Part shown: positions 15,542-44,151 of the stretch, in pieces
Layout of the letters: every line of letters starts with the position of its first letter
Position numbering within the stretch: position 1 is the stretch's first letter
Source of the DNA: a virus
Lineage: Duplodnaviria > Caudoviricetes
IMG/VR virus record: IMGVR_UViG_3300021185_001015
Coordinates: 1-59,881 of that record
Reading direction: 5' to 3' (one strand)
DNA: 59,881 nucleotides
Translations under genes and position numbers: made by a program
The notes under the pieces: model-generated
What the model was told of the DNA's origin: nothing
The model's database searches: none
Seen by the model: only the letters and a program-made list of their open reading frames with translations

Positions 15542-17530
15542 TTATGCTATTGCTAAAAATATGTAAGTGCCGCCACTGGCGTTAAGCGCAGCAGGAGCAG
15601 ATGATGTTACTGTAAAGCCACTTGATAAAGGGTCTATATAGTCTGTATTAGTTACCGAGCCGCCTTCAAATATAACGTATGGATCATTACCTGCTACAAT
15701 CCCTCTTGCGCTATCCCAGACGTACCAATCGCCATCGCCGTCAGACCTTTTTATAAGCACAAATCTGGCTCCTGCACTAAAACCACAGTCTACATCTACA
15801 TTAGACCCTGTGCCGCTATAGGAGCCTACTTTTGTAACACCATCTAGTGTTGCCCATAACCATGCGACATACTTATATGAGGATGAATTAACGGCTGCAG
15901 AGGAACTCAAAGTAAATGTTGTGTCGTTTGGGGTGGTGTTATTCCATAAACCGCCGTAGCCGCTACCATCCCCGCTAACTAAAAGACTTGCAGCGTTGCC
16001 AGTAGTTTTATGATAAACCCAGTGAGCCTCATTAGATGTGTTGTAAGCTTTTACAAACATCATTTCTGGTATAGCTTGGAGATTGTGAGTAACTGCGTGT
16101 CCCGCAGTCGCATTACCTGTATAAGTTACTATATCAAATACTTTAGACGCTCTTTTAAAAGCATAGCTGATGTGGCTTCTATTTCCTGCATTTGAGTTAT
16201 AGTAATACATCGCTCCGTTGTACTCAACATCCACGCCCTCTTGAAAATCAAATCCACCGTTGGAAGCGCTGTCTCCGGCGGGAGACGCAGAATAACTCGG
16301 GGTAATTAAAGCCTGCCCTTTCCCTCTTATTCTATCAAATATATGAAATCCATAAGAGCTATTAGAAGATGTTTTTTGATGCCAGAACTGGTCTACTGGA
16401 AACCCAGAACCACCATTAGACCCTCCATTAATAATAGTCCTGTTTGAAGCCGTACCTGAACCACTTGTTAAGGTTGCATCCTGATAAGCATACGGACTAA
16501 AAACCTCAGTCCCAGACTCAGGAGTCTTCATGGGTCTGCGGATGGCTACGTAGATGTATTTTGAACCGCTCTCATTCACAATGCCATATCCAGTCTTCAC
16601 CGTGAAACCATTTGCGTTAAAATCTATGTAGTCAGCACCTGAATCTTCACTTTCATTTTTGTTAGGCTTTATAAACGCATCATTTCCACCAGTAACGACG
16701 CCACGCATATTGTCAGCTATCCACCAATCGTCTGTATTATCAGCATTCTTTACCAACACCCACTGTGGTTCAAAACCAAGACTAACAGACCTCTCTGAGG
16801 CGTTACCTGTATAACTCCCACACTTAATAATATTCTCGCTGCCATCGTCTCCAAAGCCTCCTGCGTTGTGAGCGAATAGGTAGGCGACGTATGACCGAGC
16901 GGAGCTGTTTGTCAAACTACTACTACTAACAGTAAATGTGTTGTCGGTTGCTGCTTGTATTCTGCTTCCGTTGTCTTGTGCGCTATTACTGTTTAGATAT
17001 AATACTTTACTAAATCCCAAAGAAGTATGATGACAAGTCCAATTCGAAGAACCGTCGGTGGCTTTAATAATAATAAACTTTGGAGTAGAATTAAGAGAGT
17101 GGTTTAAGACCCTACCCTCTACACTATTCCCATCATAAGCCACAACATCAAAGAACTTCTCAGCCTTGCGGAATGTCCATGAGGCCCAAGAAGTTCCTGT
17201 GCCGTTTAAGATTGCCCCTGCGAGATTCCAACCTGTAGTGCCTGCTGACGGAAAAGAAAGATACGAAGAATAATCTGCACCTGCGGCAGTATCGTTACTA
17301 GTTAGTGATTTTTGTGGCCCATTTACAGTATCAAAAAGAACATGAGAATCTGTTGCTCCTCGTTGTTTCAGCCAAACTAAACCATCCTCATCCGAGAGTG
17401 CAATGCCGTTAGCTATTGTTCTAGCCGCATTGTTGCCTTCATACACATAAGTCGAGAAGACATCCTCAACGTACAGAGACTCACCACCTGCATTGCCTGC
17501 CGCTGCTGTTAGAGCTTTAGACAAACTCAT
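15542..17530 (-). CDS. Putative receptor-binding/distal fibre protein with repeated beta-rich domains
   Basis: Repeats of WLKQR..HVLFD, FFDVVAYDGN, CGSYTGN, FVLIKRSD.GDWYVWDSARG typical of marine phage fibre proteins; lies between fibre and chaperone genes. Confidence 0.7.
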   Translation of the reverse strand: MSLSKALTAAAGNAGGESLYVEDVFSTYVYEGNNAARTIANGIALSDEDGLVWLKQRGATDSHVLFDTVNGPQKSLTSNDTAAGADYSSYLSFPSAGTTGWNLAGAILNGTGTSWASWTFRKAEKFFDVVAYDGNSVEGRVLNHSLNSTPKFIIIKATDGSSNWTCHHTSLGFSKVLYLNSNSAQDNGSRIQAATDNTFTVSSSSLTNSSARSYVAYLFAHNAGGFGDDGSENIIKCGSYTGNASERSVSLGFEPQWVLVKNADNTDDWWIADNMRGVVTGGNDAFIKPNKNESEDSGADYIDFNANGFTVKTGYGIVNESGSKYIYVAIRRPMKTPESGTEVFSPYAYQDATLTSGSGTASNRTIINGGSNGGSGFPVDQFWHQKTSSNSSYGFHIFDRIRGKGQALITPSYSASPAGDSASNGGFDFQEGVDVEYNGAMYYYNSNAGNRSHISYAFKRASKVFDIVTYTGNATAGHAVTHNLQAIPEMMFVKAYNTSNEAHWVYHKTTGNAASLLVSGDGSGYGGLWNNTTPNDTTFTLSSSAAVNSSSYKYVAWLWATLDGVTKVGSYSGTGSNVDVDCGFSAGARFVLIKRSDGDGDWYVWDSARGIVAGNDPYVIFEGGSVTNTDYIDPLSSGFTVTSSAPAALNASGGTYIFLAIA

Positions 17531-23475: not shown

Positions 23476-23713
23476 TGGCCGTTCCTCCGTCATATTCTGC
23501 GTTAAACAATGTGGTTGTTGCGGTTCCGCTTCCTACAGAACCGATAAATGAGGTCGTAGTAGAAAGCCCTCCATCTACTGTTCTGTCAAGCTGTTGAATT
23601 AGTTTTGTTACAAGTATCGCAGATGAAGCTGTAATTTCAGCGGTAACATCCGCTTCTTTTGCAAAGCCTGCATTTGATACTGTAGTATATTTTAGCGTAC
23701 TATAATTAGCCAT
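23468..23713 (-). CDS. Small fibre adaptor-like protein ending in YDGGTANG
   Basis: Likely start MANYSTLK immediately after the upstream stop; overlaps the start of the giant fibre gene. Confidence 0.6.
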   Translation of the reverse strand: MANYSTLKYTTVSNAGFAKEADVTAEITASSAILVTKLIQQLDRTVDGGLSTTTSFIGSVGSGTATTTLFNAEYDGGTANG

Positions 23714-25819: not shown

Positions 25820-27496
25820 CTAGAATGTGCCACCGTCGATGCCACCAAATGTAGGCAATCCACCAACACCAGCAACTAGAACTTGGCCTTGTTGCCCGAT
25901 TGCTGTTGCTTGAAGTGCGCCAGTTCCGTTGCCAAACAAGATACCTTTTGTAGTAAATGTTTGGGCGCCAGTACCACCATCTGCAACGTCAATTGCTTGT
26001 GATAGATTGTGAACACGACCAAGTGTTAAGTCGCCTTCTACGTTACCAGCTACATTACCAACTACGTTACCGGTATGAGTACCAGCAGTGTTACCAGTGA
26101 CATCACCAGTTACGTTACCAGTAAGGTTAGCAACTAATGTAGCAATCTGATAGTCTGCATTAGTTTTATCAACTACATTGCCTGTGATTTCTTCACTAGA
26201 ATTTGTAAACAAATGATATTTACCGTCATTTGCATCACGGAAGAAACCAGTTGTTCTGTCATCGGCGCCGTCGTTATACCTGGCTGTGAAACCAATATCA
26301 ATTGCATCACCGGCAACACCAATGTTATTGGTAGCGTAAGCAACAAGTGAATCTTCAACAGCCATGTTAGTAGTATTAACTTGTGTGGTTGTACCAGAAA
26401 CAGTCAAGTCTCCAGAAACTGTTAAGTTACCACCAATAGTTGGGTTAGCTACGAGTCCAACTTGAATACCATTGTCAGTAACAGTAGTTTCAACTTGTAA
26501 AGCAGTACCAGAAATAGTAAGCTTTTCGCCGCCAGCTACAGTATCGTCATCACCAATGTCTGCTCCGATTTGCAAAGCAGTTGCAATAGTTGCAGTACTG
26601 GCAGAAGTAATACGACCTTTGGCATCAATGCTTAGAATAGGAACTTCAGTAGTTGAACCAACGTTACCAGCAGTTACGCCAGAATCAGCAAGTGTAAGAG
26701 CGATGTCTGCATCAGCAGAACCGTCAAAACTTACAGTACCAGTTGCGTCACCTGAAGTGCTGATGTTGCGGCTAGTTTGTAGAGCAGTTGCAGTAGAAGC
26801 ATTACCGACTACAGCACCAGTATGAGTACCAGCAGAGTTACCAGTAAGATCACCAGTTACGTTACCAGTAAGATCACCAGTTACGTTACCAGTTACCGCA
26901 CCAGTGTGAGCACCTGTAGTGCTACCTATGAACGCAGCGTCAGATCCGTCAGTGCCGTTGTCTAGAATCGTTACTAGACCGTCATTAGAAAGGACATCAC
27001 CTTTGAATGTCGCATCAGATCCGTCAGTGCCGTTGTCTAGAACCGTTACTAGACCGTCATGAGAAAGGACATCACCAGTCAATGAAGTAGCGTCTGCGCC
27101 TGATACAGTAACAGCGATATCTACGTTACCAGAACCGTCGATGCTTGCAGAACCAGCAGCATCACCTGATAAAGTAAGTGTGCGAGCAGTTGCCCATGCA
27201 GATGCAGTATCAGCGTTACCAGTTACGTCAGCATTAATTGCGCCGAGTGCATCTCTCTTTGCGAGAGTGTTGGCTGTTTTGAGATTAGTTGCAGCGTCTA
27301 CGATGTCGGTATAATACTTACCACCAACTTTGTGTATCGCAGGGGTATCGTCATTATTTTTCGACTCAATATATAATATTGCGCCAGCACCGTCAAGTGC
27401 TTTATCTTGTGCATAAGCCATTTCCGCTTCTGCTAAGTTGGTCGCATCCGGAGCTGCACTTCCGGTAGATCGTTTAATTTGAATTACAGTTGCCAT
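25820..27496 (-). CDS. Tail fibre protein with GNVTG repeats
   Basis: IQIKRSTG N-terminus; GNADTASAWATARTL and GNVTGDLT repeats; ends IDGGTF. Confidence 0.75.
   Translation of the reverse strand: MATVIQIKRSTGSAAPDATNLAEAEMAYAQDKALDGAGAILYIESKNNDDTPAIHKVGGKYYTDIVDAATNLKTANTLAKRDALGAINADVTGNADTASAWATARTLTLSGDAAGSASIDGSGNVDIAVTVSGADATSLTGDVLSHDGLVTVLDNGTDGSDATFKGDVLSNDGLVTILDNGTDGSDAAFIGSTTGAHTGAVTGNVTGDLTGNVTGDLTGNSAGTHTGAVVGNASTATALQTSRNISTSGDATGTVSFDGSADADIALTLADSGVTAGNVGSTTEVPILSIDAKGRITSASTATIATALQIGADIGDDDTVAGGEKLTISGTALQVETTVTDNGIQVGLVANPTIGGNLTVSGDLTVSGTTTQVNTTNMAVEDSLVAYATNNIGVAGDAIDIGFTARYNDGADDRTTGFFRDANDGKYHLFTNSSEEITGNVVDKTNADYQIATLVANLTGNVTGDVTGNTAGTHTGNVVGNVAGNVEGDLTLGRVHNLSQAIDVADGGTGAQTFTTKGILFGNGTGALQATAIGQQGQVLVAGVGGLPTFGGIDGGTF
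26938..27078. repeat. 75-bp in-frame duplication (GDVLSxDGLVTxLDNGTDGSDA)
   Basis: tcagatccgtcagtgccgttgtctagaa.cgttactagaccgtcat occurs twice, 75 bp apart. Confidence 0.85.
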
Positions 27497-32440: not shown

Positions 32441-33142
32441 TTAGTCTAACTTATCCTGAGGTATAGTATGATGATACAAAACAACGTCAGTGCCTTGTAG
32501 TTCTTCATAATGATAACCATTTACAAAGTTCCAACGAGCATCTGGCTCTTTAATGTATCCCCACTTGACAGCTTTCTCGCCGTAAGTCAATAGACGCCAC
32601 ATAGTAAATGTGTCCCACTTTCTAGCATCTTCGGGGTAGTGTAACATGTCATAGTCAGGTTCCCGTTGTGCAAGATACTCAGTGTACCAAGCTCCCATGA
32701 GATCCATTGTTGCTTCGTTTTTTCTATATATGAAGAAGCCACAATGGCAAGTCATCTCTTCACCTTCTGCTAACTTAGTCAGTTTAGCGTTGTATGGACG
32801 ATTCTTAGTGAATACGATATCCATATCATCAGGCAACTCGTCCCAGACATTCTGAATATCTTCATGTTGGCACATCATATCAGCATCAAGATAGCAAGTA
32901 ATATCGTATGGAGTTTTGTTGAGTGCCCAAAGTTTAGCACGAATGTGTCGTGGAATACCTTCTGTGACTATGCTATCAAATAGATCATAGTCTTCAGGTT
33001 CGACCCATTCTTCGTGTGTAAAGAATGTTATGTTAGCTTCTGGATAGAAATCTCTTACTGATTCTGCTAGTACTTTAGCATAACGATAGAATCCTTTCTT
33101 AACAGAAGCAACAATAACAAACCCTTTAGTCTGTTTCTTCGG
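32441..33142 (-). CDS. Nucleotide-diphospho-sugar (GT-A, GT8-like) transferase
   Basis: RAKLWAL..TPYDITCYLDAD, RWNF, LYHHT; likely start MPKKQ. Confidence 0.72.
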   Translation of the reverse strand, partial: PKKQTKGFVIVASVKKGFYRYAKVLAESVRDFYPEANITFFTHEEWVEPEDYDLFDSIVTEGIPRHIRAKLWALNKTPYDITCYLDADMMCQHEDIQNVWDELPDDMDIVFTKNRPYNAKLTKLAEGEEMTCHCGFFIYRKNEATMDLMGAWYTEYLAQREPDYDMLHYPEDARKWDTFTMWRLLTYGEKAVKWGYIKEPDARWNFVNGYHYEELQGTDVVLYHHTIPQDKLD

Positions 33143-33614
33143 CATTCTCAAGTTCCTTCATCAGCAAAATAGTAGCATAAGCCTGTACTTCCATAACAGA
33201 TTTAGACTTACGAATCATTCGCTTCAGTTCAGTATTTTTAGAGTTTTTGATTGCGGCGATTTCAAACGCTTCAAGTTTACAGTTGAACAGCATTTCTTGT
33301 CTGCCACGGACTGCTTGTGATTCTCGTCTTTCCATTTGACGCTTGATGTTTTCGTTGCGTCTGTCTAGGCCTTCTTGTGTGTTAGCATCAATTTCGTCTT
33401 CAGTATACTGTTCTAACACAGCTTTCATGTCAGGATTTGTGCCATCAGAATCCTGAATAGAAGCCATGCTAGTCTGTCCATTCGTTTGTTCGATAGTTAC
33501 AATGAGGTGACGATTTTCCTTATTTGACCAATAAGGATTGAGATATTTCTTTTTAGGGGTTTCCGTAAACATTATCTCAACTGGACTGTCTACAGAAACT
33601 GCTAATTCTGTCAT
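33126..33614 (-). CDS. Hypothetical protein
   Basis: 162 aa ORF with GGAG RBS, overlapping the downstream GT gene. Confidence 0.7.
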   Translation of the reverse strand: MTELAVSVDSPVEIMFTETPKKKYLNPYWSNKENRHLIVTIEQTNGQTSMASIQDSDGTNPDMKAVLEQYTEDEIDANTQEGLDRRNENIKRQMERRESQAVRGRQEMLFNCKLEAFEIAAIKNSKNTELKRMIRKSKSVMEVQAYATILLMKELENAEETD

Positions 33615-33652: not shown

Positions 33653-34975
33653 TCATTTTGTTTTATCGATTATAAGTTGAAATTTTCTAGTTTTTTTATT
33701 TACAGGAATTTCTTTTACTACGAATACATCAAAAGAAACATTATCTAAATTTTTCTTATGTAAAAGCTCAACTAAATTATTTTCAACCTTTTTTATAGCC
33801 TCTGACTTTTCTTCTTTTGTTAGATGTGATTCTAAACAAATGGGAAAACGAAAAGAAGTATCGCTAGTAACTTGCATTTGAAATTTACTTACTCCCTTGA
33901 CATAAAATCTACGAGTAATAAAAGACGTAAAACTTTCAGTATCGCCAACAGAATTTTTAAAGTAAACTTTAGTTTCTGTTCTGCTAATAAGATTTTTTGC
34001 TATAGTAGGGTATGTATTTTTTTCACTAATAGGAACAAGAACATCTGACATTTTATATCTAATTAGGGGCATAGTGTAATTACATAAATTAGTGACTAAA
34101 GTGTGATCTTCAAAAAATTCAAAAATAAGTTTATCATCAAAAAGAGACATAGTTTCTTTATCACGATTTGATCTTCCCATGTTACCATGTTCACTACTGG
34201 CATATAAGCTCATTACATGAGAGGTGGGAAATACTTTATTCAAAAATATAAGATCGTCTTTAGTTACAGTTTCTGCTGTTGCTATTATAACTTGTGGTGA
34301 TATGGATAAGTTATTATTGATTTTTTCTTCTGCTAAAATTTTCAGCATCGTAGTGTAGCCGCAAAGAATGTTTGGCTGAAATTGATTTATATCTTCAACA
34401 GTTTTAGAAACAGCTTGATTAATTTCAAACCCTTTTGCATTGAATAGTAATTTAGGCCACTTTATCGCTGAATCATATCCTGCATAATGACCGCTTACAT
34501 TACCGTAAAATGCAATCGCTGGCTTTTTTCTTTTTGTAAAAACCCAACGTACATAGTTAATTAACAGGGAAATTTTTGTTGATAATTTTGCAGGAGATAT
34601 AGAGGATAACCCTCTAATAGTATCTTTGAAGTGCGATACAAAATAGCCTTCTTCGCCTGAAGACCCAGAAGTAACGAGTGCGGTATATTTATTAAGAAAC
34701 AAATCTCTAGGATCTGAAGAGGTGGTTACAAATTCTTCAATTCCTTTTTTGGTTATTTTTCTGTCTGTAACAATATCATCAAAGTTTTCCATTGCTATAG
34801 ATTTAGTCAGGACAGGAAAATCTTCTGGCACCGAAGAGTCAATACTAATGCAATTCTCTCTTATTATTTTAGCATAATAAGGAGAATTGGCATTAGCATA
34901 TTTGACTAATTTTCTAAATTTTTTAAGCCGCTCACTCTCAAAATCAGACATGTCCGATTCATTTTTTATCTTCAT
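33653..34975 (-). CDS. Phenylacetate-CoA ligase/CapK-like adenylate-forming enzyme
   Basis: SPYY, FPVLTK, TSGSSG, YASSE, VTNL.NYTMPLIRY, K(F)QLI; visibly AT-richer than neighbours. Confidence 0.8.
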   Translation of the reverse strand: MKIKNESDMSDFESERLKKFRKLVKYANANSPYYAKIIRENCISIDSSVPEDFPVLTKSIAMENFDDIVTDRKITKKGIEEFVTTSSDPRDLFLNKYTALVTSGSSGEEGYFVSHFKDTIRGLSSISPAKLSTKISLLINYVRWVFTKRKKPAIAFYGNVSGHYAGYDSAIKWPKLLFNAKGFEINQAVSKTVEDINQFQPNILCGYTTMLKILAEEKINNNLSISPQVIIATAETVTKDDLIFLNKVFPTSHVMSLYASSEHGNMGRSNRDKETMSLFDDKLIFEFFEDHTLVTNLCNYTMPLIRYKMSDVLVPISEKNTYPTIAKNLISRTETKVYFKNSVGDTESFTSFITRRFYVKGVSKFQMQVTSDTSFRFPICLESHLTKEEKSEAIKKVENNLVELLHKKNLDNVSFDVFVVKEIPVNKKTRKFQLIIDKTK

Positions 34976-34990
34976 AATATAGATGAATCT

Positions 34991-36319
34991 TTAGGCAGTT
35001 TTTAGCCAAAGGTTTACGGTTGATACATTTTCAGTGCTTGCCTGAATTGTATCTCCTGCATAATTTCCAGTAAAGTTATTAGCATAACTACCTGAATACG
35101 TTCCTGCAAAAGTATTTGAATAATAACCAGTATACGTTCCTGAGTAAGTACCAGCGTACGCTGAAGTGCCTACATAGTAACCAGTAAAGTTTTGATTGTA
35201 TGCTCCAGTGTAGTATCCAGTGTATGTCTTAGCACCAGTATAGAAACCTGTATAGAATCCAGTGTAGTAACCGGTGTAGTAGTTAGTACCACCTGCGAAT
35301 CCAGAGTAGAAAAGAGTATATGCTTCAGTTCTAGCGTAAGCCCCTGCATAAGCGCCTGCGTATGCTGAAGTTCCTACATAGTTTCCTGCATATGCTCCAG
35401 AGAATGAACCAGTGTAAGATCCAGAATATGTCTTAGCACCTACATACGATCCTACATAATTTCCAGAATAGTTACCTGCAAAAGTATTTGAATAATAACC
35501 AGTATAGTTGCCAGTAAAATTGCCAGTGTACGTGCCTGCGTAATTTTCTGAAGCTACTTGTTGGCGAGTATCAACGAGACTATCACCCATTTGAACCCAA
35601 GTGCCGCCTGCAGGAGCAGACGCTTGTAACTTATATGTACCTACACCAGAGTCAATTATACGATTTCTAAAATTAGGAACCATCTGTTCGATTTCAGCAA
35701 CAGTCATCATCTTAACATTAGTGCCTTCTAGTTTTAGAGAAGATAAGTCAGAATTTGCTGATGTAGTAGGAGCAGTCTTTTGCCACAAGTAAAGGTTAGT
35801 GCTTCCGCCTTGATTGCTATCTGTGATAGTGGCACGAGAAGTCCAAGTACCGCCTGCAGGAGCAGATGCTGCTAATGAATATTGACCAACAGTGTAGCCT
35901 GTACTAGTTACCATGTCTTCAATAACTTTATCTAGTACATCTGTATCTATTGCTGAATCGTTGAATTCTTTAATAGAGGAGTCCCAGCCAACTGGACGAT
36001 TTGTGATGCTTTCAGATGCTGCCGCTGTTACTTGCTTGAAGTAGTACGTAGTATCTGTAGTTGCACCAGCAGTTGGATGAGTACCGATTGCATCATTACG
36101 AATAGTGTTAGTCCAAGTACCAATACTAGTACCTGTCAAAGCATTCGAGGTATCAACATTAAGTTCTGCTGTACCTGTGCCATCTGTATCAGTTGCAAAC
36201 TTATTTGTGATTACATAAGAGAGATATTGATTTATCTCGCCGGCCGTCATTTCCTGCAAGCCCTGAAAGTTTGCAGAAGTGATTGGAGTACCTGATGCCT
36301 TTATTCTTAATGGTTGCAT
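34991..36319 (-). CDS. Virion protein with long (Y/F)-x-G-x repeat region (predicted beta-hairpin)
   Basis: N-terminal duplicated domain (SAPAGGTW twice) plus about 165 aa of Y/F-x-G-x repeats. Confidence 0.75.
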   Translation of the reverse strand: MQPLRIKASGTPITSANFQGLQEMTAGEINQYLSYVITNKFATDTDGTGTAELNVDTSNALTGTSIGTWTNTIRNDAIGTHPTAGATTDTTYYFKQVTAAASESITNRPVGWDSSIKEFNDSAIDTDVLDKVIEDMVTSTGYTVGQYSLAASAPAGGTWTSRATITDSNQGGSTNLYLWQKTAPTTSANSDLSSLKLEGTNVKMMTVAEIEQMVPNFRNRIIDSGVGTYKLQASAPAGGTWVQMGDSLVDTRQQVASENYAGTYTGNFTGNYTGYYSNTFAGNYSGNYVGSYVGAKTYSGSYTGSFSGAYAGNYVGTSAYAGAYAGAYARTEAYTLFYSGFAGGTNYYTGYYTGFYTGFYTGAKTYTGYYTGAYNQNFTGYYVGTSAYAGTYSGTYTGYYSNTFAGTYSGSYANNFTGNYAGDTIQASTENVSTVNLWLKTA

Positions 36320-36328
36320 GGTTTAATC

Positions 36329-36811
36329 TTAATTTAGCTGTGATCCCGTAGAATCATAAACAATAACCGACTGAAGGCCATTCCATAATGTTCCAGAAGA
36401 ACACACTAGAGTTAGACTTGCACCAGGAGCCAAGTTTTTTGCAGTATTTGTTCCCAAAGCATCTATTTGTTCACCAGATGCTGGATACACTTTAATATTC
36501 ACTGCTGTGTTGTTGAGAATAGTAGCAACTTTACCTATAGTTGCGTCAGGAAGTACTACACCCTGATCAGCAGTGGCCGTTGTTACTATATTATAGGTCT
36601 TTGTCAGTGCTGTAGCGTCACCTTGTATCGTTCCAGCTGCGGAAACAGTACCTGAGATTGCGAAATTAGTTTCTCCTGCAACGGCAAGCGTACCAACACT
36701 AACATCATCACCAGATTGATACTTGTCAGTATTTAGGTTGGTGAAGTTAGTATCAACCTCATTATTGGTTAAAGGACTGCCTTTAATAGACCTTAGAGTG
36801 ATTGTTGCCAT
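36329..36811 (-). CDS. Small fibre/structural protein
   Basis: ITLRSIKGSPLTNNEVDTNFTNLN N-terminal anchor-type motif; GVVLP...IKVYP. Confidence 0.7.
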   Translation of the reverse strand: MATITLRSIKGSPLTNNEVDTNFTNLNTDKYQSGDDVSVGTLAVAGETNFAISGTVSAAGTIQGDATALTKTYNIVTTATADQGVVLPDATIGKVATILNNTAVNIKVYPASGEQIDALGTNTAKNLAPGASLTLVCSSGTLWNGLQSVIVYDSTGSQLN

Positions 36812-37062: not shown

Positions 37063-40000
37063 TTAGACCTGCAATGCGTAAGCTCTGAGTCCAGAGGACT
37101 TAGGTATCTTAGCTGTGTTGCCGCTCAAATGTACAATCTTAATAGAAAAGTCTTTGAATGATTTGAATGTAACCGGTGTAACCGTAACTGCACCAGCAGT
37201 TGCTCCTGCTCCGTCGCCGTCGGGATTAATAGTAGCAGTAACAGTTCCGCCTTCATAGTCTCGACCTGGATTTGTTATCTTTATACCTGTGACTGCTCCG
37301 CCAGAAATGATTGCTTCTGCTGTTGCGCCATAACCAGTACCTTCTGAGTGAACTAAAGACACTGTAGGCGCAGTAGCAGAATATCCAGAACCACCTGCAC
37401 TAACAGCAATTGCAGATACTCTAGACACTGAGTACTCATACACACCTGTACCTGCATCTACGCCTGAGTTGGTTGATCCCTTAGCAGGTATCTTGTATAC
37501 ATACTGTGCAAAGTTTTCAGTTGCAACTTTAGGAGAAGTTTCTACTTCTAACTTCTTCCAGTAGATGTCATTGTTAAACTCAGCATCATCTTCAGCATTT
37601 CTAAATTTACCATAAACTTCTACTGCTGCGTTATTTGGTATCTTGTTGTCCAAGAACACTCTCATATCTTCAGCATCTTGTTTATCTGCTAATACAACTT
37701 GTCGTGAAATATATTTAGCAGATGCATTGCCACCGAATCTAACTTCTTCTGTTACTGTAGAATTTCCACTAATATCTTTCGGATAGTTTATCTTGTTCTT
37801 GTATACACCCATATCCATACTAGCAATATCAATAATAGGCGACAAGTTATTTAGAGGCGTTCTTACTGTAAACCTAACACGAGCAGTCTTGTTTGTAGCA
37901 TACAATGTTTGTTCGTTAGAGTAACTGTATATAGTTTTCTCTGTTTCTAACTCTGTAGTTGAATTGATATCTACTACCGAATACGTTGTATTTGCAGAAG
38001 CTGCTCCAGTGTTAGTTAGAGCAATTTCTTTCTTGATTGTTCCAAGTTCGCCTGCATTCGCAGTTGATAGCTTCAGTACATGTGCATCAACTATACGATT
38101 GCCTATACTGCCAATATTTACAGTAGTAGCTGCATTGCCTACTAGATCAGCAGCAGTGAAATAACCATCTGTGACTTCTAGCTCATATGTTTTATATGCA
38201 GAGTCAAAGTATTTAACTTTTGCACGATTCAATCTCACAGTAACAGTTGCCGCTGTTGTAGGATCGCCCAAACTCAACGCTACAGTTGGATTTGATGTGT
38301 AACCGGCACCAGGATTAGTGAGAGTTATAGTTGTAACTACACCGCCACTCACAACATAAGAGAATTCTCCTCCAGTACCGCCGCCGCCAGTAATAGCAAC
38401 CCCAGTATATGTTCCATCTGTATACCCTACACCTGCACTTGATGTGGTAAAAGTAAAGCCATGAACAAAACTCAATAAATCGAATTTAGGCTGAACAGAT
38501 TGCTTCCATGTATTATTGTCAAATAGTATCCAGTCAGTATTTTTGTTAGTTGTATTTAAAACAAAATCAGTATTGGATGTAAACTTACATCGATTGACAA
38601 TAAACATCAAATCTTCTGATTGATGTGGAGTCCAGCTTCTGTTGTTTGCTGAAGTGAATAAGACACCGCCATGCGCTTGCTTTGTTATTCTGTTTGCTGT
38701 ATTCTTTTCAATTTCTCCAAGCTCACCAACCCACGCTTCATAGTTAGGATCATTTGCTTCAGGCATTAGAACGATACAGTATTCAGTATCGTTTTCTAAA
38801 TGAACTAAATGCTGGAATCTAAACTTAGTTGAAATGAAGTCTACTGCACCAGATACTGCATTAATAGATGCTTTAACATCACTTCTTCTCAAGAATACTT
38901 CACCATTTGGTATTACTTGTTTACCAGGAACGCCGTTTACAACTTCTCTGATTTGTAAAGTGATGCCGTTGTTATTTTCTTCTGGGGGGATTCTCTTGAA
39001 GAATATATCTACAGAAGGTACAAACATACCGCCTGGCATTCCAGTAACAAAGAATGTTTGTGCAAGAGGATCCATGCCAGACATGCAAAGATTTATCTCT
39101 CCAATTCCTGGGAACTTCCAGTTTGAAAAGTCGAACACTGAAGTTGCTTCAGCAACTTTTATTGAAAGTAGTGGATCTGGAGTTTCAGCAGAGACAGTAT
39201 TAGTCTCAATTGCAAATGGGCCCATGATCTGTATGCCAGCAGCTTCATCAGCAGCCGCAAATCTGCCTTCAGTAGTAGTTACCCCCGGAACATAGTCAGC
39301 ATCATCTAATCCAGCAGCGACTAAATTCACACCATTCGCTAAATCAACAGTGATTACTCCGGAAGCACTTCCCCCAGTATTTGTGTTGCCGCCCACATCA
39401 AAGATAGTAACATCAGTTATAGGAGTATCATCTACCACTATAGTGTTTGTTACTGTGTTAAAAGTTTCTGCTTCTGGTACGGTAGCTATAGTAACAACTT
39501 CTGGTACTAATGTTATAGTACCTGCAGAGGATATTGTTGTAGTAGAAGTTGCACATGAAGAGTCAACAGTAGTTACGCCGTATGTTGTTCCATCAAATCT
39601 TCTATATGTATCTTCTCGGCTGCCTGGTGTGCCAATTGAACATCCGCCAGATACAAATACATCTTCTACAGGAATCCATATTGGATCACCTGAATTCTGT
39701 CTATGGGTATCGATTATAACGTCACCCTTCTTCGTCATTGTTCTACCGTCTTCGCCGATAGGAATGATTTCTTTCTTAGTATCAAAAAGAGACTCAGGTA
39801 CCATTGGTGGCGCAGGCCACTTTGTTGTCACATAAGTAGTTTGGAAAGTTCTCTTTGTTCCATTCGCCGTGAATGAAGCTGCGGCATATGACTCAATGTC
39901 ATCAAGTTTGTTTGCGTCAGATATTTCAATTAGGATATTACCACACCTAAATTCACCTTTATTGACACTGATAGAGAAATCTGCTCTACCGTTTGCGTTA

Positions 40001-43000
40001 GTGGTCAATGATCCTTTATTTACTCCGCCCATCACAATATTATGAGTTGCGTTAGGCATCAGTGCCTGTACTGAACCAGAGATAGCAATAGGACGAACAA
40101 AGGCTGCCACTTCAGTATTGATTATAGAGTCGCCGATATTCTCTGTAACTTCGTCAGGAATGTTTCCGTAGAAGATACGAGAACCTGTTCTTTCCCAGGT
40201 CTGAGTATTCTGACCAGCAACAGTAGTTGTAATATCGTATTTTTGTCTGCGACCAGTATATGTGTGAACTTCTTGTTGCCAGTAACCAGAGGCTTCTTCT
40301 TTAGTTTCGAAATCAATAGAAGTAGGTCCGACGCTGCCGCCGTAACCTTTAGGAGGAATTCCTATTTCACCTTCGGTTATTATAGTTTCAGCATTTATTA
40401 TGTCTTCAGATACAAGTTCCCAAGAACCCCAAGTATCTTTCCAATCACCAGTTATCTCTAGGTTGTCCCAAGATCCTTGTTCGTTCTTATATGCAGCTTC
40501 AGCATACGAATCATCGAACCAAGAATCTTCAGAAGGAACTAAATTCAAGCTGCCTCTATATGGCCCAAGAGCAGGCGCAGGCGGAACAGGAGTCACTGAA
40601 GTATCATTAATTGTGACTGAAGTGGTTACCGCATTTCCACCCATTGTTATGCTGTCAAGGGTAAGAGTGAGAGTTTCTGTGCCTTCAGTCAAAGCATCTG
40701 CTGTGATGTTAAATGTTACTGAAGCATCTCCTACTGCATCTAATGTGAATGATCCAGTTAAGCTGGCGCCTCCTATATCAGCAGAAGAAATGCCAGTAAT
40801 TGTATAAGGAATAGTCTGACCATTAGAATTCTCAAGATTTCTAACTTCGAGACTTATTGTGCAAGAATTTCCTTCATTAACTGTTGCGCCCGTAGTTCTA
40901 ATCAGTTGATAGTCAACTTCGAGGGGTCTAGGCTCAGGTCGAGGATCAGCTACTACTACAGGAGGAGGCGCAGGTATAACTGGAGCTGGCACTGGATCGG
41001 GAGTTAATGGATTCACAGTTTCTGGATTGGCGTATAATAATTCACCAACAACATTTCTAAACTTGCTTGCTTGTAGTTGCTTTGTGAATGTAGTTTCTAC
41101 ATAAGGTATATGGAACAAGTCTCCGCTCTGACTCATAGTAGTATCAGTCACGACAGGCTTAAATCCAACAATACTAGAATCAAAAGACGCTCTCATCTGT
41201 TGACGTTTTAAATCCAATGAACATGCGTTATCGTCATGCCCTACTGCGATTGTGCCATAACCCTTGAATGCGTCTATCATCAAACCATTTTTGAATCTAT
41301 CTATGCCATTAGTATCCAAAATCTGAACAGACTTCGCTTCTTTTTCAAGTAAACTCAATGCAGTATAGTATTCGAGATTTGCGATTCTCTCTTCTAATCC
41401 ACCGATATCTCGCATGGTATATCTTTTAGTTCTGACTTGTTCTATATAAATTTTCAAGTCAGACCGCTTATAATAATTCGCAGCTTTTACAGATAAAGCT
41501 GGATACGGCGGCAAGATTCCTTTTGCGATTGTGAGAGAGTTTGCAGGAGCCTCTGGGAACTTAGGATAATCAGCAGACTGCGACTTGAGTACTTTTATTG
41601 TACCAGAGTCAGTAATTACTACTTTGAATGCTTGTGCAAGATAGTAACTTAGATCTGTCGTGAATGTTGCAATAGGGACAGGATTACTCAGTCCTTGAGC
41701 AGGTCTTACAATAGTTTCAGTGATATCAGGATTTAAAGTTGCAGATGCTAATGTAGCAGCCTCAACAGCAGTGTTATTTACATAAGGCCTAAAATCTATG
41801 CAGTTTCTCAAATCAATAATATTGCCTGCTGCAGGAGAATACAAAGGAATCTCCTGAAGGCCAAGACCTGTGCCAGTATAAGAGTCAACACATGCAAAAG
41901 AAGGACCGTTCACAGTTCTTGTTAAATAATCAAATTTTACAGATATATATTTGTAAGTAGATAAATCAACAGAGCTACTTGCTTTTTGCTTTATCTTTGC
42001 CAAACCGTAATAGTTATCTCTTTGACCGTTATCTATAATAAAATCATCAGTAATATTGATTGCGCCAGTTTCATAATCAGCATTAGTAGTAGCAGTGATC
42101 AATTTAATTTTTATAAGATCAGTTACGCCAAGTGAGTACCAGCCACTAGCAGCATTGTAACCAGCTGCATCTGTTTGTATCTTTACATAGTTGTCTTGAA
42201 TTCTTGTCTTTGTAATAGGACCAACGCCATCTGAGTATTGCATGTTCACATATACTCTAACATTGGCATTAGAGGCAGGAGCGCTGCTAAATGTAATAAT
42301 TAGTTGACTTTCAGTTGGTTGAGTTACCGTAATGCTTGCATGAGTCAAGTCTATGTATTCGCCAGCGGCATATGAAACTCCGCCAGCAGTAAATGCATCT
42401 ACAGCTACTGCTTGGATGTTGGCAAGTATTTCAGTAGGAGTTGGGCTTGCAGATAAAAAGAAAGTTTGTTGTGAAGAAGGTCCGGCTAGTGTTATTTGGC
42501 CAGTTCCGGAATCTACAGATGCATCAAATTCGTTGATATATTTAAAATCAAAATCATATGCACCGGCATCTGCTTTCATTGTTTCTAGATTTGCATAAGG
42601 CAATTCCCACACTAATCTGTTGTAGTTGCCTTCTTGAATGACGGCCTCAGAACCTGAGTTCAATACAGTATCGGCAAATGCGTTCGATGTGCTGTTTGCA
42701 TAATGTATCGTTTCAACATCTTTGAATGTTCCTGCCGACATTTTTATATCATAGAGATACAATCGATATTGTGCAGCAGCAGATCCAGCTGTACCAGAAT
42801 TTAATGTCAAGTATCTAACTTTAGCTGTGCCTATTTTATTACCAGCAACTGAAGTCGATGCGAATGAAGCAGCAGTTACCGCAGTTACAGCAGTGTCATA
42901 AAGATCAATAGAAGCGCCGCCGTCTACATCCCACATGCCGCAAACTTCTTTGACTAATGTATAATTTCCGTATGCTGTAGTTTGAGAAACTGAGTTTTCT

Positions 43001-44151
43001 ATTTTAGTATCTTTAGGCTTGTCTACAATTAATGGCAAGTCTTTCTTTGTTTCTATAGGATAACCAGCAACATTTGCAGTACCAGGAGTGATTGAGAAAA
43101 CAAACTTATCAGCATCTCCTCCAGCACTAACACTGAAATAACCAGAGTTTACACCGTTATTTAGATGCTCATGAACTACGGTTTGCAGTCCTTTAATATT
43201 ATAGCTACCATTTGCATCATACGCTCTTTTCGCTAGAATATCACCTAGACCTTTTAATGGGTCTGTTTTGATATTACTTGTTACGATATTTCCATTTCTA
43301 TATGCAGCGTACTGATAGAAGTTTTCTGGTATGTTTCTAGTACCATCAGACTCTCTATAGTTATATGAACGCAATGAAGCTGTGAGTTTTAGTCTGTCTG
43401 CGCCTGGTGCATAGTAGTTGAATGATCCTTGAGCAACGTCTAATAGGGTCTCATCGGTAGACGAGGTAACAATTGACTCCAATACATAAAAACCAATATT
43501 CTTATCAGCTTTAACAACAAATGGATCAATATAAGCAGCAAGATCTGTGGTTCTAATAAATGTACCACGAGCGTATATGATACCAGCACTTAGTTGAATT
43601 CTAGGGGCAGTTCCTTCGTATCGAGTGTTAGATCCTACCGAAGCAGATCCAGAATCTATTGACACAAACTTTTTGCCGTTTAATAGAACATTGTCTGAAG
43701 ATACTGTTAAAGTTTCATTCATAGAAAAAACTTTAGTTATAGAATCTCCTCTTCCTGTGTATGCAATATAAAGAGTTTTAGTATTTGGATTTCCGGCTTC
43801 GGTTCCTTTTCTCACATCAATAATTTGTGCAGTCAGACCTGTTATACTGCCTACAATTTTACTTCCAATATAGCTTGCCAAAGCACTGTTTGCAATAGCA
43901 GCACCGTCAAAATCAGAATCCTTAATCTTTATATATTTTACTACAGTAATTTTTTCTTCACAGCCACTAATAATGGCACCGTCTTTAAGCGTGAAGCTAG
44001 ACAATTGCGATAGTTGATCCGACAGTACGGTTTGAAGCTGCGTTAATTCTCTTGCTTGAACAGCAACGCCAGGCTTGAACAATATTCTATTGTAATTTTT
44101 GGTACTATCAAAATTATCATAATAGGGAGAAGAATTTAGATTAAGAGCCAT
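37063..44151 (-). CDS. Large virion structural protein, DUF4815/VrlC-like
   Basis: PYYDNFD..KNYNRILFKPG.AVQARELTQLQ, APGADRLK, YTMRDIG.LE.RI.NLEYYT.LSLLE, DRFKNG, DPLAQTF. Confidence 0.9.
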   Translation of the reverse strand: MALNLNSSPYYDNFDSTKNYNRILFKPGVAVQARELTQLQTVLSDQLSQLSSFTLKDGAIISGCEEKITVVKYIKIKDSDFDGAAIANSALASYIGSKIVGSITGLTAQIIDVRKGTEAGNPNTKTLYIAYTGRGDSITKVFSMNETLTVSSDNVLLNGKKFVSIDSGSASVGSNTRYEGTAPRIQLSAGIIYARGTFIRTTDLAAYIDPFVVKADKNIGFYVLESIVTSSTDETLLDVAQGSFNYYAPGADRLKLTASLRSYNYRESDGTRNIPENFYQYAAYRNGNIVTSNIKTDPLKGLGDILAKRAYDANGSYNIKGLQTVVHEHLNNGVNSGYFSVSAGGDADKFVFSITPGTANVAGYPIETKKDLPLIVDKPKDTKIENSVSQTTAYGNYTLVKEVCGMWDVDGGASIDLYDTAVTAVTAASFASTSVAGNKIGTAKVRYLTLNSGTAGSAAAQYRLYLYDIKMSAGTFKDVETIHYANSTSNAFADTVLNSGSEAVIQEGNYNRLVWELPYANLETMKADAGAYDFDFKYINEFDASVDSGTGQITLAGPSSQQTFFLSASPTPTEILANIQAVAVDAFTAGGVSYAAGEYIDLTHASITVTQPTESQLIITFSSAPASNANVRVYVNMQYSDGVGPITKTRIQDNYVKIQTDAAGYNAASGWYSLGVTDLIKIKLITATTNADYETGAINITDDFIIDNGQRDNYYGLAKIKQKASSSVDLSTYKYISVKFDYLTRTVNGPSFACVDSYTGTGLGLQEIPLYSPAAGNIIDLRNCIDFRPYVNNTAVEAATLASATLNPDITETIVRPAQGLSNPVPIATFTTDLSYYLAQAFKVVITDSGTIKVLKSQSADYPKFPEAPANSLTIAKGILPPYPALSVKAANYYKRSDLKIYIEQVRTKRYTMRDIGGLEERIANLEYYTALSLLEKEAKSVQILDTNGIDRFKNGLMIDAFKGYGTIAVGHDDNACSLDLKRQQMRASFDSSIVGFKPVVTDTTMSQSGDLFHIPYVETTFTKQLQASKFRNVVGELLYANPETVNPLTPDPVPAPVIPAPPPVVVADPRPEPRPLEVDYQLIRTTGATVNEGNSCTISLEVRNLENSNGQTIPYTITGISSADIGGASLTGSFTLDAVGDASVTFNITADALTEGTETLTLTLDSITMGGNAVTTSVTINDTSVTPVPPAPALGPYRGSLNLVPSEDSWFDDSYAEAAYKNEQGSWDNLEITGDWKDTWGSWELVSEDIINAETIITEGEIGIPPKGYGGSVGPTSIDFETKEEASGYWQQEVHTYTGRRQKYDITTTVAGQNTQTWERTGSRIFYGNIPDEVTENIGDSIINTEVAAFVRPIAISGSVQALMPNATHNIVMGGVNKGSLTTNANGRADFSISVNKGEFRCGNILIEISDANKLDDIESYAAASFTANGTKRTFQTTYVTTKWPAPPMVPESLFDTKKEIIPIGEDGRTMTKKGDVIIDTHRQNSGDPIWIPVEDVFVSGGCSIGTPGSREDTYRRFDGTTYGVTTVDSSCATSTTTISSAGTITLVPEVVTIATVPEAETFNTVTNTIVVDDTPITDVTIFDVGGNTNTGGSASGVITVDLANGVNLVAAGLDDADYVPGVTTTEGRFAAADEAAGIQIMGPFAIETNTVSAETPDPLLSIKVAEATSVFDFSNWKFPGIGEINLCMSGMDPLAQTFFVTGMPGGMFVPSVDIFFKRIPPEENNNGITLQIREVVNGVPGKQVIPNGEVFLRRSDVKASINAVSGAVDFISTKFRFQHLVHLENDTEYCIVLMPEANDPNYEAWVGELGEIEKNTANRITKQAHGGVLFTSANNRSWTPHQSEDLMFIVNRCKFTSNTDFVLNTTNKNTDWILFDNNTWKQSVQPKFDLLSFVHGFTFTTSSAGVGYTDGTYTGVAITGGGGTGGEFSYVVSGGVVTTITLTNPGAGYTSNPTVALSLGDPTTAATVTVRLNRAKVKYFDSAYKTYELEVTDGYFTAADLVGNAATTVNIGSIGNRIVDAHVLKLSTANAGELGTIKKEIALTNTGAASANTTYSVVDINSTTELETEKTIYSYSNEQTLYATNKTARVRFTVRTPLNNLSPIIDIASMDMGVYKNKINYPKDISGNSTVTEEVRFGGNASAKYISRQVVLADKQDAEDMRVFLDNKIPNNAAVEVYGKFRNAEDDAEFNNDIYWKKLEVETSPKVATENFAQYVYKIPAKGSTNSGVDAGTGVYEYSVSRVSAIAVSAGGSGYSATAPTVSLVHSEGTGYGATAEAIISGGAVTGIKITNPGRDYEGGTVTATINPDGDGAGATAGAVTVTPVTFKSFKDFSIKIVHLSGNTAKIPKSSGLRAYALQV

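What the first reader, a model, noticed from the sequence alone, without database searches (positions are those of the whole stretch)
35054..35542. Symmetric about 163-residue Tyr/Phe-Gly beta-hairpin encoded in a virion protein
Seen: with N of the first YYSNTFAG numbered 0, the region is symmetric about F63 (codon 35297-35299, in SGFAGG). Residues i and 126-i pair an aromatic with a Gly almost without exception from -18 to 144 (Y6/G120, G8/Y118, Y20/G106, Y42/G84, G48/Y78, Y-18/G144). The register shifts also match: GAKT at 18 faces GTSA at 108, and GTSA at 40 faces GAKT at 86. A 32-nt identical DNA repeat (35103-35134 and 35475-35506) encodes the outer landmark. Established: cross-strand aromatic-over-Gly pairs stabilise antiparallel sheets. 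Inference: a hairpin of about 80 residues per strand (roughly 25 nm if extended) that may oligomerise into a needle or narrow beta-barrel for receptor probing or envelope penetration. The other face carries T/S/Y/N/A residues that could be modified.
Basis: partly seen in the sequence, partly recalled or inferred. Interest (0 to 1): 0.85.

Follow-up and report, generated by a model that had tools for sequence, protein, structure and literature searches.

The report
Tyrosine-glycine zipped hairpin in phage fibre
A marine T4-like phage gene ends in a long run of four-residue Tyr/Phe-x-Gly-x repeats whose two halves change length together across relatives, which fits a long two-armed beta-hairpin stalk of adjustable length in an undescribed protein family.

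Summary
The region is the C-terminal 163 residues of a 442-aa ORF (34991-36319, minus strand). About F341 (35297-35299), 30 of 42 same-face mirrored rows pair Tyr/Phe with Gly. Shuffling the tetrads and linkers reaches 30 in 2 of 3000 trials. This one sequence could also be a direct duplication, but relatives decide for the mirror reading. In 112 of 118 close homologs the N arm minus the C arm is exactly 9 residues, while arms range from 61/52 to 123/114. On a tree of the N-terminal domain, 35 of 42 length changes are equal on both arms. Extra 22-residue 'AKT' units in the N arm are matched by extra 'TSA' units in the C arm. The repeat sits inside the beta-hairpin of the third of three homologous modules. 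AlphaFold models a short-armed relative confidently (pLDDT 90.9) with long strands at the mirrored positions. In the query itself the arms are not modelled (pLDDT 24-44). No Pfam, PHROG, PDB or cultured-phage relative was found. The gene lies just downstream of the VrlC-like gene of a T4-like marine myovirus. Hairpin topology is well supported. Oligomeric state and function are untested, because the complex tool did not complete.

The parts
34991..36319 (-). Whole ORF, 442 aa plus stop (P0001). It belongs to an undescribed phage protein family.
   Evidence: 884 homologs at E<=0.001 among 8000 scored candidates. 546 representative clusters. No Pfam or PHROG hit.
35555..36319 (-). N-terminal domain, residues 1-255. 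It is built of three homologous modules, each a helix, a short strand (GTYxL) and a beta-hairpin (GGTW ... LWxKTA).
   Evidence: AF2 pLDDT is mostly 80-90. Module 2 against module 3 scores 74, against 23 +/- 4.4 for shuffles, with 0 of 2000 reaching it. The secondary-structure pattern repeats in P0173.
35543..35719 (-). Module 3, N-terminal part (residues 201-259). Its outgoing strand runs straight into the tetrad repeat.
   Evidence: alignment. In P0173 the equivalent strand, 238-258, is continuous.
35300..35542 (-). N arm (outgoing), residues 260-340. It consists of x-[YF]-[TSAV]-G tetrads.
35429..35437 (-). It faces S386.
35363..35371 (-). It faces K364.
35273..35332 (-). Tip region, residues 330-349, with an irregular sequence around the turn ...LFYSGFAGG... 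The mirror centre F341 is codon 35297-35299.
   Evidence: The turn motif is found once in 114 of 116 homologs that had both anchors. Small paired 2-residue indels lie here.
35054..35296 (-). C arm (returning), residues 342-422.
35225..35233 (-).
35159..35167 (-).
34994..35053 (-). C-terminal tail strand, residues 423-442 (ends ...LWLKTA). It is the returning strand of module 3's hairpin.
   Evidence: AF2 strand 426-440 with pLDDT 87-89. It aligns with the second hairpin strand of module 2: score 33 against 21 +/- 4, reached by 20 of 2000 shuffles.
35475..35506 (-). 32-nt exact DNA repeat, N-arm copy (encodes ...YYSNTFAG...).
   Evidence: It lies within a 78-nt pair that is 79% identical (family D1).
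35103..35134 (-). 32-nt exact DNA repeat, C-arm copy.

Best explanation
Residues 260-422 are an out-and-back excursion. The chain leaves the third module of the N-terminal domain as a beta-strand and runs about 80 residues to a turn at ...LFYSGFAGG.... It returns antiparallel and in register for about 80 residues, then re-enters the module as its last strand (...LWLKTA).

The arms are held in register by a four-residue code, x-[Tyr/Phe]-[Thr/Ser/Ala/Val]-Gly. On one face every cross-strand row has one large residue (Tyr, Phe or Lys) lying over one small one (Gly, Asn or Ser). The large residue alternates between the strands. The other face carries small and polar residues.

Because the code is periodic, the stalk can be lengthened or shortened only by matched changes in both arms. 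Nature has done this in steps of 2, 4, 12 and 22 residues per arm.

The protein is most likely a fibre-like or whisker-like structural component encoded in the host-recognition cluster of a T4-like marine myovirus. The hairpin would be its stalk, and in larger relatives a separate domain sits at the tip.

Shown: the mirror pattern, the paired indels, the insertion point inside a module hairpin, and conserved synteny next to structural genes. Inferred: actual strand pairing, rod length (about 25 nm if fully extended), assembly of several hairpins (a trimer is my guess) with the aromatic face buried, presence in the virion, and a role in host recognition.
For: 1. Mirror pattern beyond periodicity. 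There are 30 aromatic/Gly rows, and token shuffles reach this in 2 of 3000 trials.

2. Paired indels. In 118 of 120 close homologs analysed (2 truncated ones dropped), N arm minus C arm is 9 in 112 sequences and in 14 of 20 length classes, from 61/52 to 123/114. Fitch parsimony on a tree of the N-terminal domain gives 42 changes: 35 equal on both arms, 4 on the N arm only, 3 unequal and 0 on the C arm only. An earlier anchor set gave Pearson 0.93 over 114 sequences.

3. Unit types are mirrored, not directly repeated. The counts (K in N arm, S in N arm, K in C arm, S in C arm) are 1,1,1,1 in 92 sequences; 2,1,1,2 in 10; 3,1,1,3 in 2; and 2,2,2,2, 1,2,2,1 and 1,0,0,1 in one each. So 107 of 114 obey K(N)=S(C) and S(N)=K(C).

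4. No DNA-level cause. The ORF has no inverted repeats.

5. Insertion point. The flanks of the repeat align with the two strands of module 2's hairpin.

6. AF2. In the short-armed relative P0173 (mean pLDDT 90.9), strands 238-258 and 286-314 include tetrads. The mirror rule maps 238-258 onto 288-308. In P0001 the tail strand has pLDDT 87-89.

7. Family-wide axis. The best Tyr/Gly mirror axis lies at the same offset (+5) from the module anchors in 110 of 119 close homologs and 31 of 116 distant representatives, for segments of 68 to 843 residues. Large members have a non-repeat middle domain flanked by zipped arms.

8. Register-specific coupling in 21 distant representatives. The aromatic is Phe in 16% of rows opposite Gly, but in 43-63% opposite Asn, Ser, Gln or Arg (odds ratios 3.9-8.9). 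For Phe opposite Asn, the one partner tested this way, the enrichment is lost when the partner is slid by 4 or 8 residues either way.

9. Context. The gene order is VrlC-like (DUF4815, phrog_358), an 81-aa 'virion structural protein' (phrog_473), a 160-aa ORF, this gene. The order is conserved where the flanks are present in 80 IMG/VR loci. Baseplate genes lie nearby. PMC7029224 (passages read) places tail fibres downstream of VrlC in pelagimyophages.

10. Precedents read in passages. T4 gp37 domain D10 is made of residues 811-881 plus 1010-1026, with the needle D11 (882-1009) between them, and G921 packs against F970 of another subunit (PMC6957217). Tyr over a Gly kink is the 'aromatic rescue' or mortise/tenon motif of beta-barrels (bioRxiv 10.1101/2020.10.22.346965).
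Against: AF2 does not model the arms of this protein. pLDDT is 24-44 over residues 256-427. In P0173 the tip (261-283) is below 50. I could not see coordinates or PAE, so strand pairing in the models is inferred from DSSP ranges only.

Six of 118 close homologs break the length rule (123/92, 101/70, 41/70, 60/68, 151/139, 115/108). All are single sequences. I cannot tell whether they are assembly collapses of repeats or real unpaired bulges.

The mirror-axis test is biased towards the centre because overlap is greatest there. It discriminates weakly between offsets 4 apart (30 against 27 in P0001), and 85 of 116 distant representatives do not peak at +5.

The Fisher tests count repeated units within proteins as independent, so their p-values are inflated.

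The tree may be disturbed by recombination, which would inflate the event count, especially the +/-2 flips.

There is no direct evidence that the protein is in virions, that it oligomerises, or that it binds a receptor. No relative exists in cultured phages.
Confidence: 0.65

Rival explanations
1. The topology is the same hairpin, but the job differs. The hairpin would be a 'tentacle' that lies along the shaft of another fibre protein, as the beta-hairpins of tail-fibre chaperones and intramolecular chaperone domains do. The protein would then be an assembly factor, cap or decoration rather than a fibre of its own. Arm length would follow the length of its partner.
For: PMC10579305 (passages read) describes variable-length beta-hairpins of about 16 to 88 Angstrom on fibre chaperones. 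They protrude from a compact body, embrace the fibre, and lengthen together with an insertion in the fibre. P0001 likewise has a compact body plus one hairpin of very variable length. A lone two-stranded ribbon with an all-aromatic face would want a partner surface.
Against: There is no sequence or fold similarity to those chaperones. The body here is a three-module alpha/beta domain, not a helical core. The length of this gene does not follow that of its neighbours: r = -0.08 with the 160-aa ORF and -0.20 with the 162-aa ORF, over 38 distinct length combinations from 71 loci. Relatives with a 300-500-residue domain at the tip look like stalk plus head. Partners elsewhere in the genome were not tested.
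Confidence: 0.15
2. The mirror pattern is a by-product of a period-4 repeat that was duplicated directly (period 68). The region would fold as something other than a hairpin, for instance a beta-solenoid with 22-residue rungs.
For: Identity at direct offset 68 is 40%, as high as at offset 4. Duplicating a unit with two landmarks gives mirror-placed landmarks automatically. 22 residues is a plausible rung length (my own knowledge). AF2 gives no confident hairpin for this protein.
Against: Longer homologs are K K K S | K S S S, not a direct repeat. Arms change by equal amounts in 35 of 42 events, including steps of 2 and 4 residues that a fixed-rung solenoid would not tolerate easily. The two ends of the region are the two strands of one module hairpin, which a 7-rung solenoid would hold about 3.5 nm apart (my estimate).
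Confidence: 0.07
3. The region is an intrinsically disordered, Tyr/Gly-rich low-complexity segment acting as a sticky or gel-forming tether. It would have no fixed pairing of the two halves.
For: The composition is 23% Tyr, 20% Gly and 4 charged residues in 164. AF2 pLDDT is 24-44, and the ESM Atlas model has mean pLDDT 0.46.
Against: Disorder gives no reason for exact co-variation of arm lengths, for matched phase shifts or for register-specific residue coupling. The position between the aromatic and Gly is T, S, A or V in 98% of 3578 tetrads. The base of the arms is modelled as strands at pLDDT above 90 in P0173.
Confidence: 0.06
4. The region is an antiparallel alpha-helical hairpin packed through GxxxG 'glycine zipper' motifs.
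For: Gly recurs every fourth residue. One homolog carries a precomputed PF13441 (Gly-zipper) label and another is named YcfJ by its source. A helical hairpin would also need arms of equal length.
Against: P0001 has no Pfam hit at E<=0.1. The composition (Tyr, Gly, Thr, Ser, Asn, Val) disfavours helices (my knowledge). AF2 assigns strands, not helices, to the region in both models. Phase shifts and paired indels come in steps of 2 residues, which is the beta period.
Confidence: 0.02

Closest known systems
Needle (domains D10/D11) of the bacteriophage T4 long tail fibre protein gp37
   Same: The chain leaves a base domain, forms a long thin beta structure and returns to the same base domain (D10 is residues 811-881 plus 1010-1026; D11 is 882-1009). 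A stem Gly packs against a Phe, and other side chains there would clash. Both are encoded in the fibre region of a T4-like phage (PMC6957217, passages read).
   Different: There is no sequence or profile similarity and no fold match. There are no His-x-His iron sites, and the region has no His at all. The arms here follow a strict 4-residue code and vary from none to about 190 residues. The trimer state was not tested. T4 needs the chaperones gp38 and gp57A, and no counterpart was looked for.
Aromatic rescue of glycine, or the mortise/tenon Tyr-Gly motif of beta-barrels
   Same: A Tyr lies over a cross-strand Gly and helps set the strand register (bioRxiv 10.1101/2020.10.22.346965, passages read).
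   Different: There it is an isolated motif, a few per barrel. Here it is repeated in every row for about 80 rows as the sole zipper of a two-armed structure. No Asp or Glu partner of the extended motif is present (4 charged residues in 164).
Beta-hairpin 'tentacles' of tail-fibre chaperones and intramolecular chaperone domains (phages A5, V22, T5, K1F)
   Same: A single hairpin of variable length protrudes from a compact body (PMC10579305, passages read).
   Different: The body fold differs and there is no homology. Those hairpins are at most about 9 nm long. The arms here would be about 25 nm if extended, and longer in relatives.
Single-layer beta-sheet rods such as the G5-E repeats of SasG/Aap
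   Same: Long, thin, Gly-rich beta structures without a conventional hydrophobic core.
   Different: These are bacterial surface proteins with three-stranded sheets, built from tandem domains rather than one hairpin. No comparison was run.

Membership tests
T4 gp37-type fibre needle | Sequence or profile similarity to the gp37 C-terminal region or to known fibre families | tested here: not met
   No Pfam hit at E<=0.1. No PHROG hit at E<=0.01. A profile of 60 homologs against PDB sequences gave only one chance-level hit at E 0.29. tblastn against 50,697 phage records found nothing, even at E<=1 for the N-domain.
T4 gp37-type fibre needle | Out-and-back topology: the thin domain is an excursion from, and returns to, one base domain | tested here: met
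   The evidence is indirect. The flanks of the repeat align with the two strands of one module hairpin. The tail strand is confident in AF2. Arm lengths co-vary.
T4 gp37-type fibre needle | His-x-His rows that bind iron along the needle axis | tested here: not met
   Residues 259-422 contain no His (composition).
T4 gp37-type fibre needle | Homotrimer with six strands in the needle | not testable with these tools
Aromatic-rescue / mortise-tenon pairing | An aromatic side chain directly cross-strand from Gly in an antiparallel sheet | tested here: inconclusive
   At sequence level 30 of 42 mirrored rows are Tyr/Phe with Gly. The actual geometry needs a structure.
Fibre chaperone / intramolecular chaperone with hairpin tentacle | Homology or fold similarity to the helical chaperone body | tested here: not met
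   [not shown]
Glycine zipper (PF13441) | Pfam match above the gathering score | tested here: not met
   P0001 has no Pfam family at E<=0.1. Only 1 of the 120 listed homologs carries a precomputed PF13441 label.
Beta-solenoid repeat proteins (pentapeptide, hexapeptide, 22-residue rungs) | A fixed rung length, directly repeated, with indels in whole rungs | tested here: not met
   The basic period is 4 residues, or 12 nt. Paired indels occur in steps of 2, 4, 8, 12 and 22 residues per arm. Units are mirrored rather than directly repeated.
Collagen-like / polyglycine-II fibres | Gly at every third residue | tested here: not met
   Gly recurs at every fourth residue.

The most novel reading that the evidence does not exclude
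This is a new class of phage fibre. It would be a beta-needle of programmable length, written in a four-residue code (x-Tyr/Phe-small-Gly) and growing out of one hairpin of a three-module base domain that has no relative in the PDB. The arms range from none to about 190 residues. In some members a receptor-binding head sits at the tip. Length would be tuned in nature by compensating insertions in the two arms, perhaps to span host surface layers of different thickness.
Probability: 0.4. Interest if true: 0.8.

Novelty: new variant of a known kind. Interest (0 to 1): 0.68.

Why it matters
If the reading is right, this is a natural and very simple sequence code for a long, register-locked beta-hairpin. 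It comes with an evolutionary series in which the same stalk has been made in many lengths, which would interest protein designers as well as phage structural biologists. It would also give a first structural handle on a conserved but unannotated gene next to VrlC in the host-recognition cluster of abundant uncultured marine T4-like phages. The tail fibres of those phages have been hard to identify (PMC7029224, passages read). The paired-indel series makes the model directly testable: rod length should rise by about 4 nm for 12 residues per arm and about 7 nm for 22 residues per arm.

Tried and rejected
Family and fold look-ups found nothing.
- Pfam and PHROGs gave no hit for P0001. Pfam gave none for P0173 or P0140.
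- The profile of 60 homologs against PDB sequences gave one chance-level hit.
- Foldseek of the P0001 model against PDB and BFVD had best E-values of 0.33 and 0.16.
- The ESM Atlas returned only unnamed viral clusters.
- blastn and tblastn against cultured phages found no match.

- The AF2 monomer of P0001 did not resolve the arms.
- A trimer prediction of residues 200-442 was sent seven times in the same form, as the tool asked, and never answered. The tool then said it was not available. There is therefore no result on oligomerisation.
- Supplements of papers were not opened.

Literature. Searches for a described Tyr-Gly tetrapeptide fibre found nothing relevant among the listings shown: 'tetrapeptide repeat' + tyrosine + glycine + bacteriophage returned 3 unrelated papers, and 'tyrosine ladder' / beta-hairpin / tail fiber listed 10 of 93 papers. 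That is no proof of absence.

Ideas rejected.
- Direct-duplication artefact, disorder, helical glycine zipper, solenoid and collagen-like readings; see the rival explanations.
- The neighbouring AMP-binding-like ORF as a dedicated modifier of the fibre. It is present in only 1 of 80 related loci.

My first anchor set lost 7 of 121 sequences and put the arm difference at 16. The better anchors lost 2 of 120 and give 9. The two differ only in where the arms are counted from. My first hairpin print-out was one register off the true centre and showed almost no pairs. It was used only for arm lengths.
Full report
WHAT IS THERE. The finding lies in the last third of a 442-aa ORF on the minus strand (34991-36319), kept as P0001. 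Residues 260-422 are almost entirely tetrads of the form x-[Tyr/Phe]-x-Gly. Thirty clean tetrads were found among 41 tokens, and Tandem Repeats Finder sees period-12 arrays. The composition is 23% Tyr, 20% Gly, 16% Thr, 12% Ala, no His, and four charged residues in 164. In 3578 tetrads of close homologs the residue between the aromatic and Gly is T, S, A or V in 98% of cases. The residue before the aromatic is more varied (T, N, A, S, Y, D, F, G). The period is broken by four two-residue phase shifts, AKT at residues 295-297 and 363-365 and TSA at 317-319 and 385-387, and by an irregular centre ...LFYSGFAGG.... No other ORF of the window has such runs.

CHECK OF THE OBSERVATION. About F341, 30 of the 82 mirrored pairs are aromatic/Gly, with no Gly/Gly and two aromatic/aromatic pairs. 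On the face that carries Tyr and Gly, 30 of 42 rows are aromatic/Gly, three are Phe/Asn and two are Lys/Ser. So 35 of 42 rows put a large residue over a small one. The other face pairs small and polar residues (A/T, T/T, A/A and so on).

A period-4 repeat with the aromatic at 0 and Gly at 2 gives such pairs about many axes, so the real question is whether the phase shifts are mirrored. They are. Sum 126 is the best axis (30 pairs, against 27 for sum 122). Shuffling tetrads and linkers as whole tokens gives 21.0 +/- 2.7, with 2 of 3000 shuffles reaching 30. However, the same landmarks also fit a direct duplication of 68 residues (40% identity at that offset). Duplicating a unit with two landmarks places them mirror-symmetrically for free. 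This sequence alone therefore cannot decide.

THE HOMOLOGS DECIDE. The word-indexed search found 884 relatives among 8000 scored candidates and listed 120 of them, 297-560 aa long. I measured arm lengths in 118 of 120 (two truncated ones dropped). Arms ran from the conserved DTRQ-like motif to the central turn and from the turn to the conserved DTIQ-like motif. N arm minus C arm is exactly 9 in 112 sequences and in 14 of 20 length classes, from 61/52 to 123/114. On a FastTree of the N-terminal domain only, Fitch parsimony needs 42 changes of the joint length state. Of these, 35 are equal on both arms (steps of 2, 4, 8, 12, 14, 16, 18, 22 and 24 residues), 4 touch the N arm only, 3 are unequal and none touches the C arm only. 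Recombination may inflate this count. The 14 distinct on-diagonal classes are a floor that does not depend on the tree.

The unit types are mirrored, not directly repeated. Forms of 462-463 aa have two AKT units in the N arm and two TSA units in the C arm. Forms of 506-507 aa have three and three, which reads K K K S | K S S S. The rule K(N)=S(C) and S(N)=K(C) holds in 107 of 114 sequences. The ORF has no inverted DNA repeat, so no single mutational event can change both arms together. The symmetry must be kept by selection on the protein.

In P0001 itself the 12-residue lengthening of the N arm relative to the 418-aa forms carries a 32-nt exact copy of C-arm DNA, within a 78-nt pair that is 79% identical. 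The C arm was lengthened by other sequence.

Six single sequences break the length rule. I cannot tell assembly errors from real bulges.

WHERE THE REPEAT IS INSERTED. The N-terminal 255 residues are three homologous modules, each a helix, a short GTYxL strand and a beta-hairpin that begins GGTW and ends LWxKTA. Module 2 against the first part of module 3 scores 74, against 23 +/- 4.4 for shuffles, with 0 of 2000 reaching it. The last 20 residues of the protein align with the loop and second strand of module 2's hairpin: score 33 against 21 +/- 4, reached by 20 of 2000 shuffles. The tetrad region is therefore an insertion inside the hairpin of module 3, and its two ends must lie side by side.

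AlphaFold2 with 60 homologs models the modules and the tail strand (426-440) at pLDDT 87-89. It gives pLDDT 24-44 for residues 256-427, so the arms of this protein are not modelled.

For a short-armed distant relative (P0173, 316 aa, 55-sequence alignment) the model has mean pLDDT 90.9. It has a 21-residue strand at 238-258 and a 29-residue strand at 286-314 that include tetrads. Only the tip (261-283) is below 50. The mirror rule derived from the anchors maps 238-258 onto 288-308 and gives 11 aromatic/Gly rows. I had no access to coordinates, so pairing is inferred from these ranges.

THE WIDER FAMILY. A full HMMER scan found 546 representative clusters (E<=0.001), with lengths from about 110 to 2500 aa. 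Some have almost no repeat (P0154). Some have arms of about 14-40 residues. P0147 has arms of about 190 residues, with 66 aromatic/Gly rows. Several (P0140, P0124, P0125, P0127, P0174) have a non-repeat middle of up to several hundred residues flanked by arms. In P0140 (1176 aa) the two arms use different 12-residue repeats yet stay in register for about 150 rows.

The best mirror axis, found from Tyr/Gly pairs alone, lies at the same offset (+5) from the module anchors in 110 of 119 close and 31 of 116 distant proteins, for segments of 68-843 residues. This test is biased towards the centre and discriminates weakly between offsets 4 apart, so I use it as support only.

In the 21 distant representatives with that axis, the aromatic is Phe in 16% of rows opposite Gly. 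It is Phe in 43% opposite Asn, 48% opposite Ser, 63% opposite Gln and 44% opposite Arg (odds ratios 3.9-8.9). For Phe opposite Asn, the one partner tested this way, the enrichment vanishes when the partner is slid by 4 or 8 residues. Internal repeats make those p-values too small.

CONTEXT. The window is the baseplate and fibre region of a T4-like myovirus. It has PHROG hits to the baseplate hub and lysozyme, wedge subunits, tube cap and tail fibre proteins. Its gp6-like wedge protein is 40% identical to that of Pelagibacter phage HTVC008M and 35-37% to cyanophage and Methylophilales-phage homologs. GC content is 39%.

Upstream of the gene lie a 2362-aa protein with DUF4815 and phrog_358, which I take to be the VrlC-like protein. 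The name is from PMC7029224 and my recall, not from a call. Then come an 81-aa 'virion structural protein' (phrog_473) and a 160-aa ORF.

In 80 IMG/VR loci the order is VrlC-like / 81 aa / 160 aa / this gene / 162 aa / glycosyltransferase-like 236 aa / 218 aa. The order is kept wherever the flanks are present: 68, 63, 75, 80, 80, 78 and 77 of 80 loci respectively.

PMC7029224 (passages read) defines the host recognition cluster of pelagimyophages as the region between VrlC and gp14. It says that the genes downstream of VrlC are tail fibres in most genomes, that glycosyltransferases abound there, and that fibres were hard to annotate. PMC12379486 (passages read) reports structural variants concentrated in that cluster.

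MECHANISM. I commit to this reading. The two arms pair antiparallel and in register. On one face each row holds one large side chain (Tyr or Phe; Lys at the shifts) lying over a small one (Gly; Asn or Ser) of the other strand, with the large residue alternating between strands, which gives a continuous aromatic stripe. The other face is small and polar. The steps from sequence to geometry are inferred. The principle, an aromatic over a cross-strand Gly that sets register, is established. A Gly-against-Phe contact is essential in the stem of the T4 gp37 needle.

A two-stranded ribbon with an all-aromatic face is unlikely to stand alone. I think several hairpins bundle with that face inward, most simply three as in gp37, with each layer holding three aromatics and three Gly. 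Alternatively the ribbon lies on another fibre, as chaperone tentacles do. I could not test either reading. About 81 rows at about 0.33 nm give about 25-27 nm if fully extended, and twist would shorten this (my estimate).

COMPARISON AND NOVELTY. It works like the gp37 needle (out and back from a base domain, Gly/aromatic packing) but is not a member. It has no homology, no His-x-His iron sites and no fold match. No known family, solved structure or cultured phage carries it, and my two literature searches found no description among the listings shown. I rate it a new variant of a known kind: a fibre-like out-and-back beta stalk, built on a new sequence code and in a new family.

VERDICT. The needle or barrel assembly, the role in host recognition and any modification remain open.

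Noticed in passing
window 33653-34975 (-): This 440-aa ORF has weak AMP-binding matches (PF00501 at E 0.006, below the cut-off). It sits directly downstream of the hairpin gene. It is present in only 1 of 80 related loci (L008, 72% identity), so it is a recent insertion into an otherwise fixed gene order.
   Followed up: partly
window 32441-33151 (-): The 236-aa glycosyltransferase-like ORF has weak GT2 and GT8 matches. In the closest loci it is better conserved (91-96% identity) than the hairpin gene (72-85%), and it is present in 78 of 80 loci. Whether it acts on the host surface or on the fibre was not tested.
   Followed up: partly
window 36329-36811 (-): The 160-aa ORF just upstream is present in 75 of 80 loci. 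Its residues 49-149 are 52% identical to a hypothetical protein of the jumbo Ralstonia phage RsoM2USA. There is also a weaker match in Xanthomonas phage LucasX.
   Followed up: no
window 37063-44151 (-): This 2362-aa protein carries DUF4815 (E 9e-44) and phrog_358 (E 1e-272). Its residues 1900-2007 carry repeats also found in baseplate wedge PHROGs. It is probably the VrlC-like marker of the host recognition cluster.
   Followed up: partly
L053-L057, L064, L065, L068, L069, L077-L079 (between the 160-aa ORF and the hairpin gene): In 12 of 80 related loci, 2-3.3 kb of extra sequence lies between the 160-aa ORF and the hairpin gene homolog. I did not look at what it encodes.
   Followed up: no
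[not shown]
   Followed up: partly
P0140, P0124, P0125, P0127, P0174 (distant relatives): Large family members carry a non-repeat middle of up to several hundred residues between the zipped arms. P0127 has NPAGPSYS-type repeats at matching places in both arms. These would be candidate tip or head domains.
   Followed up: partly
window 17530-23493 (-) and 25820-27496 (-): Further fibre-like genes lie in the window: a 1987-aa protein and a 558-aa protein, both with several tail-fibre PHROG matches. They are possible partners of the hairpin protein. This was not tested.
   Followed up: no
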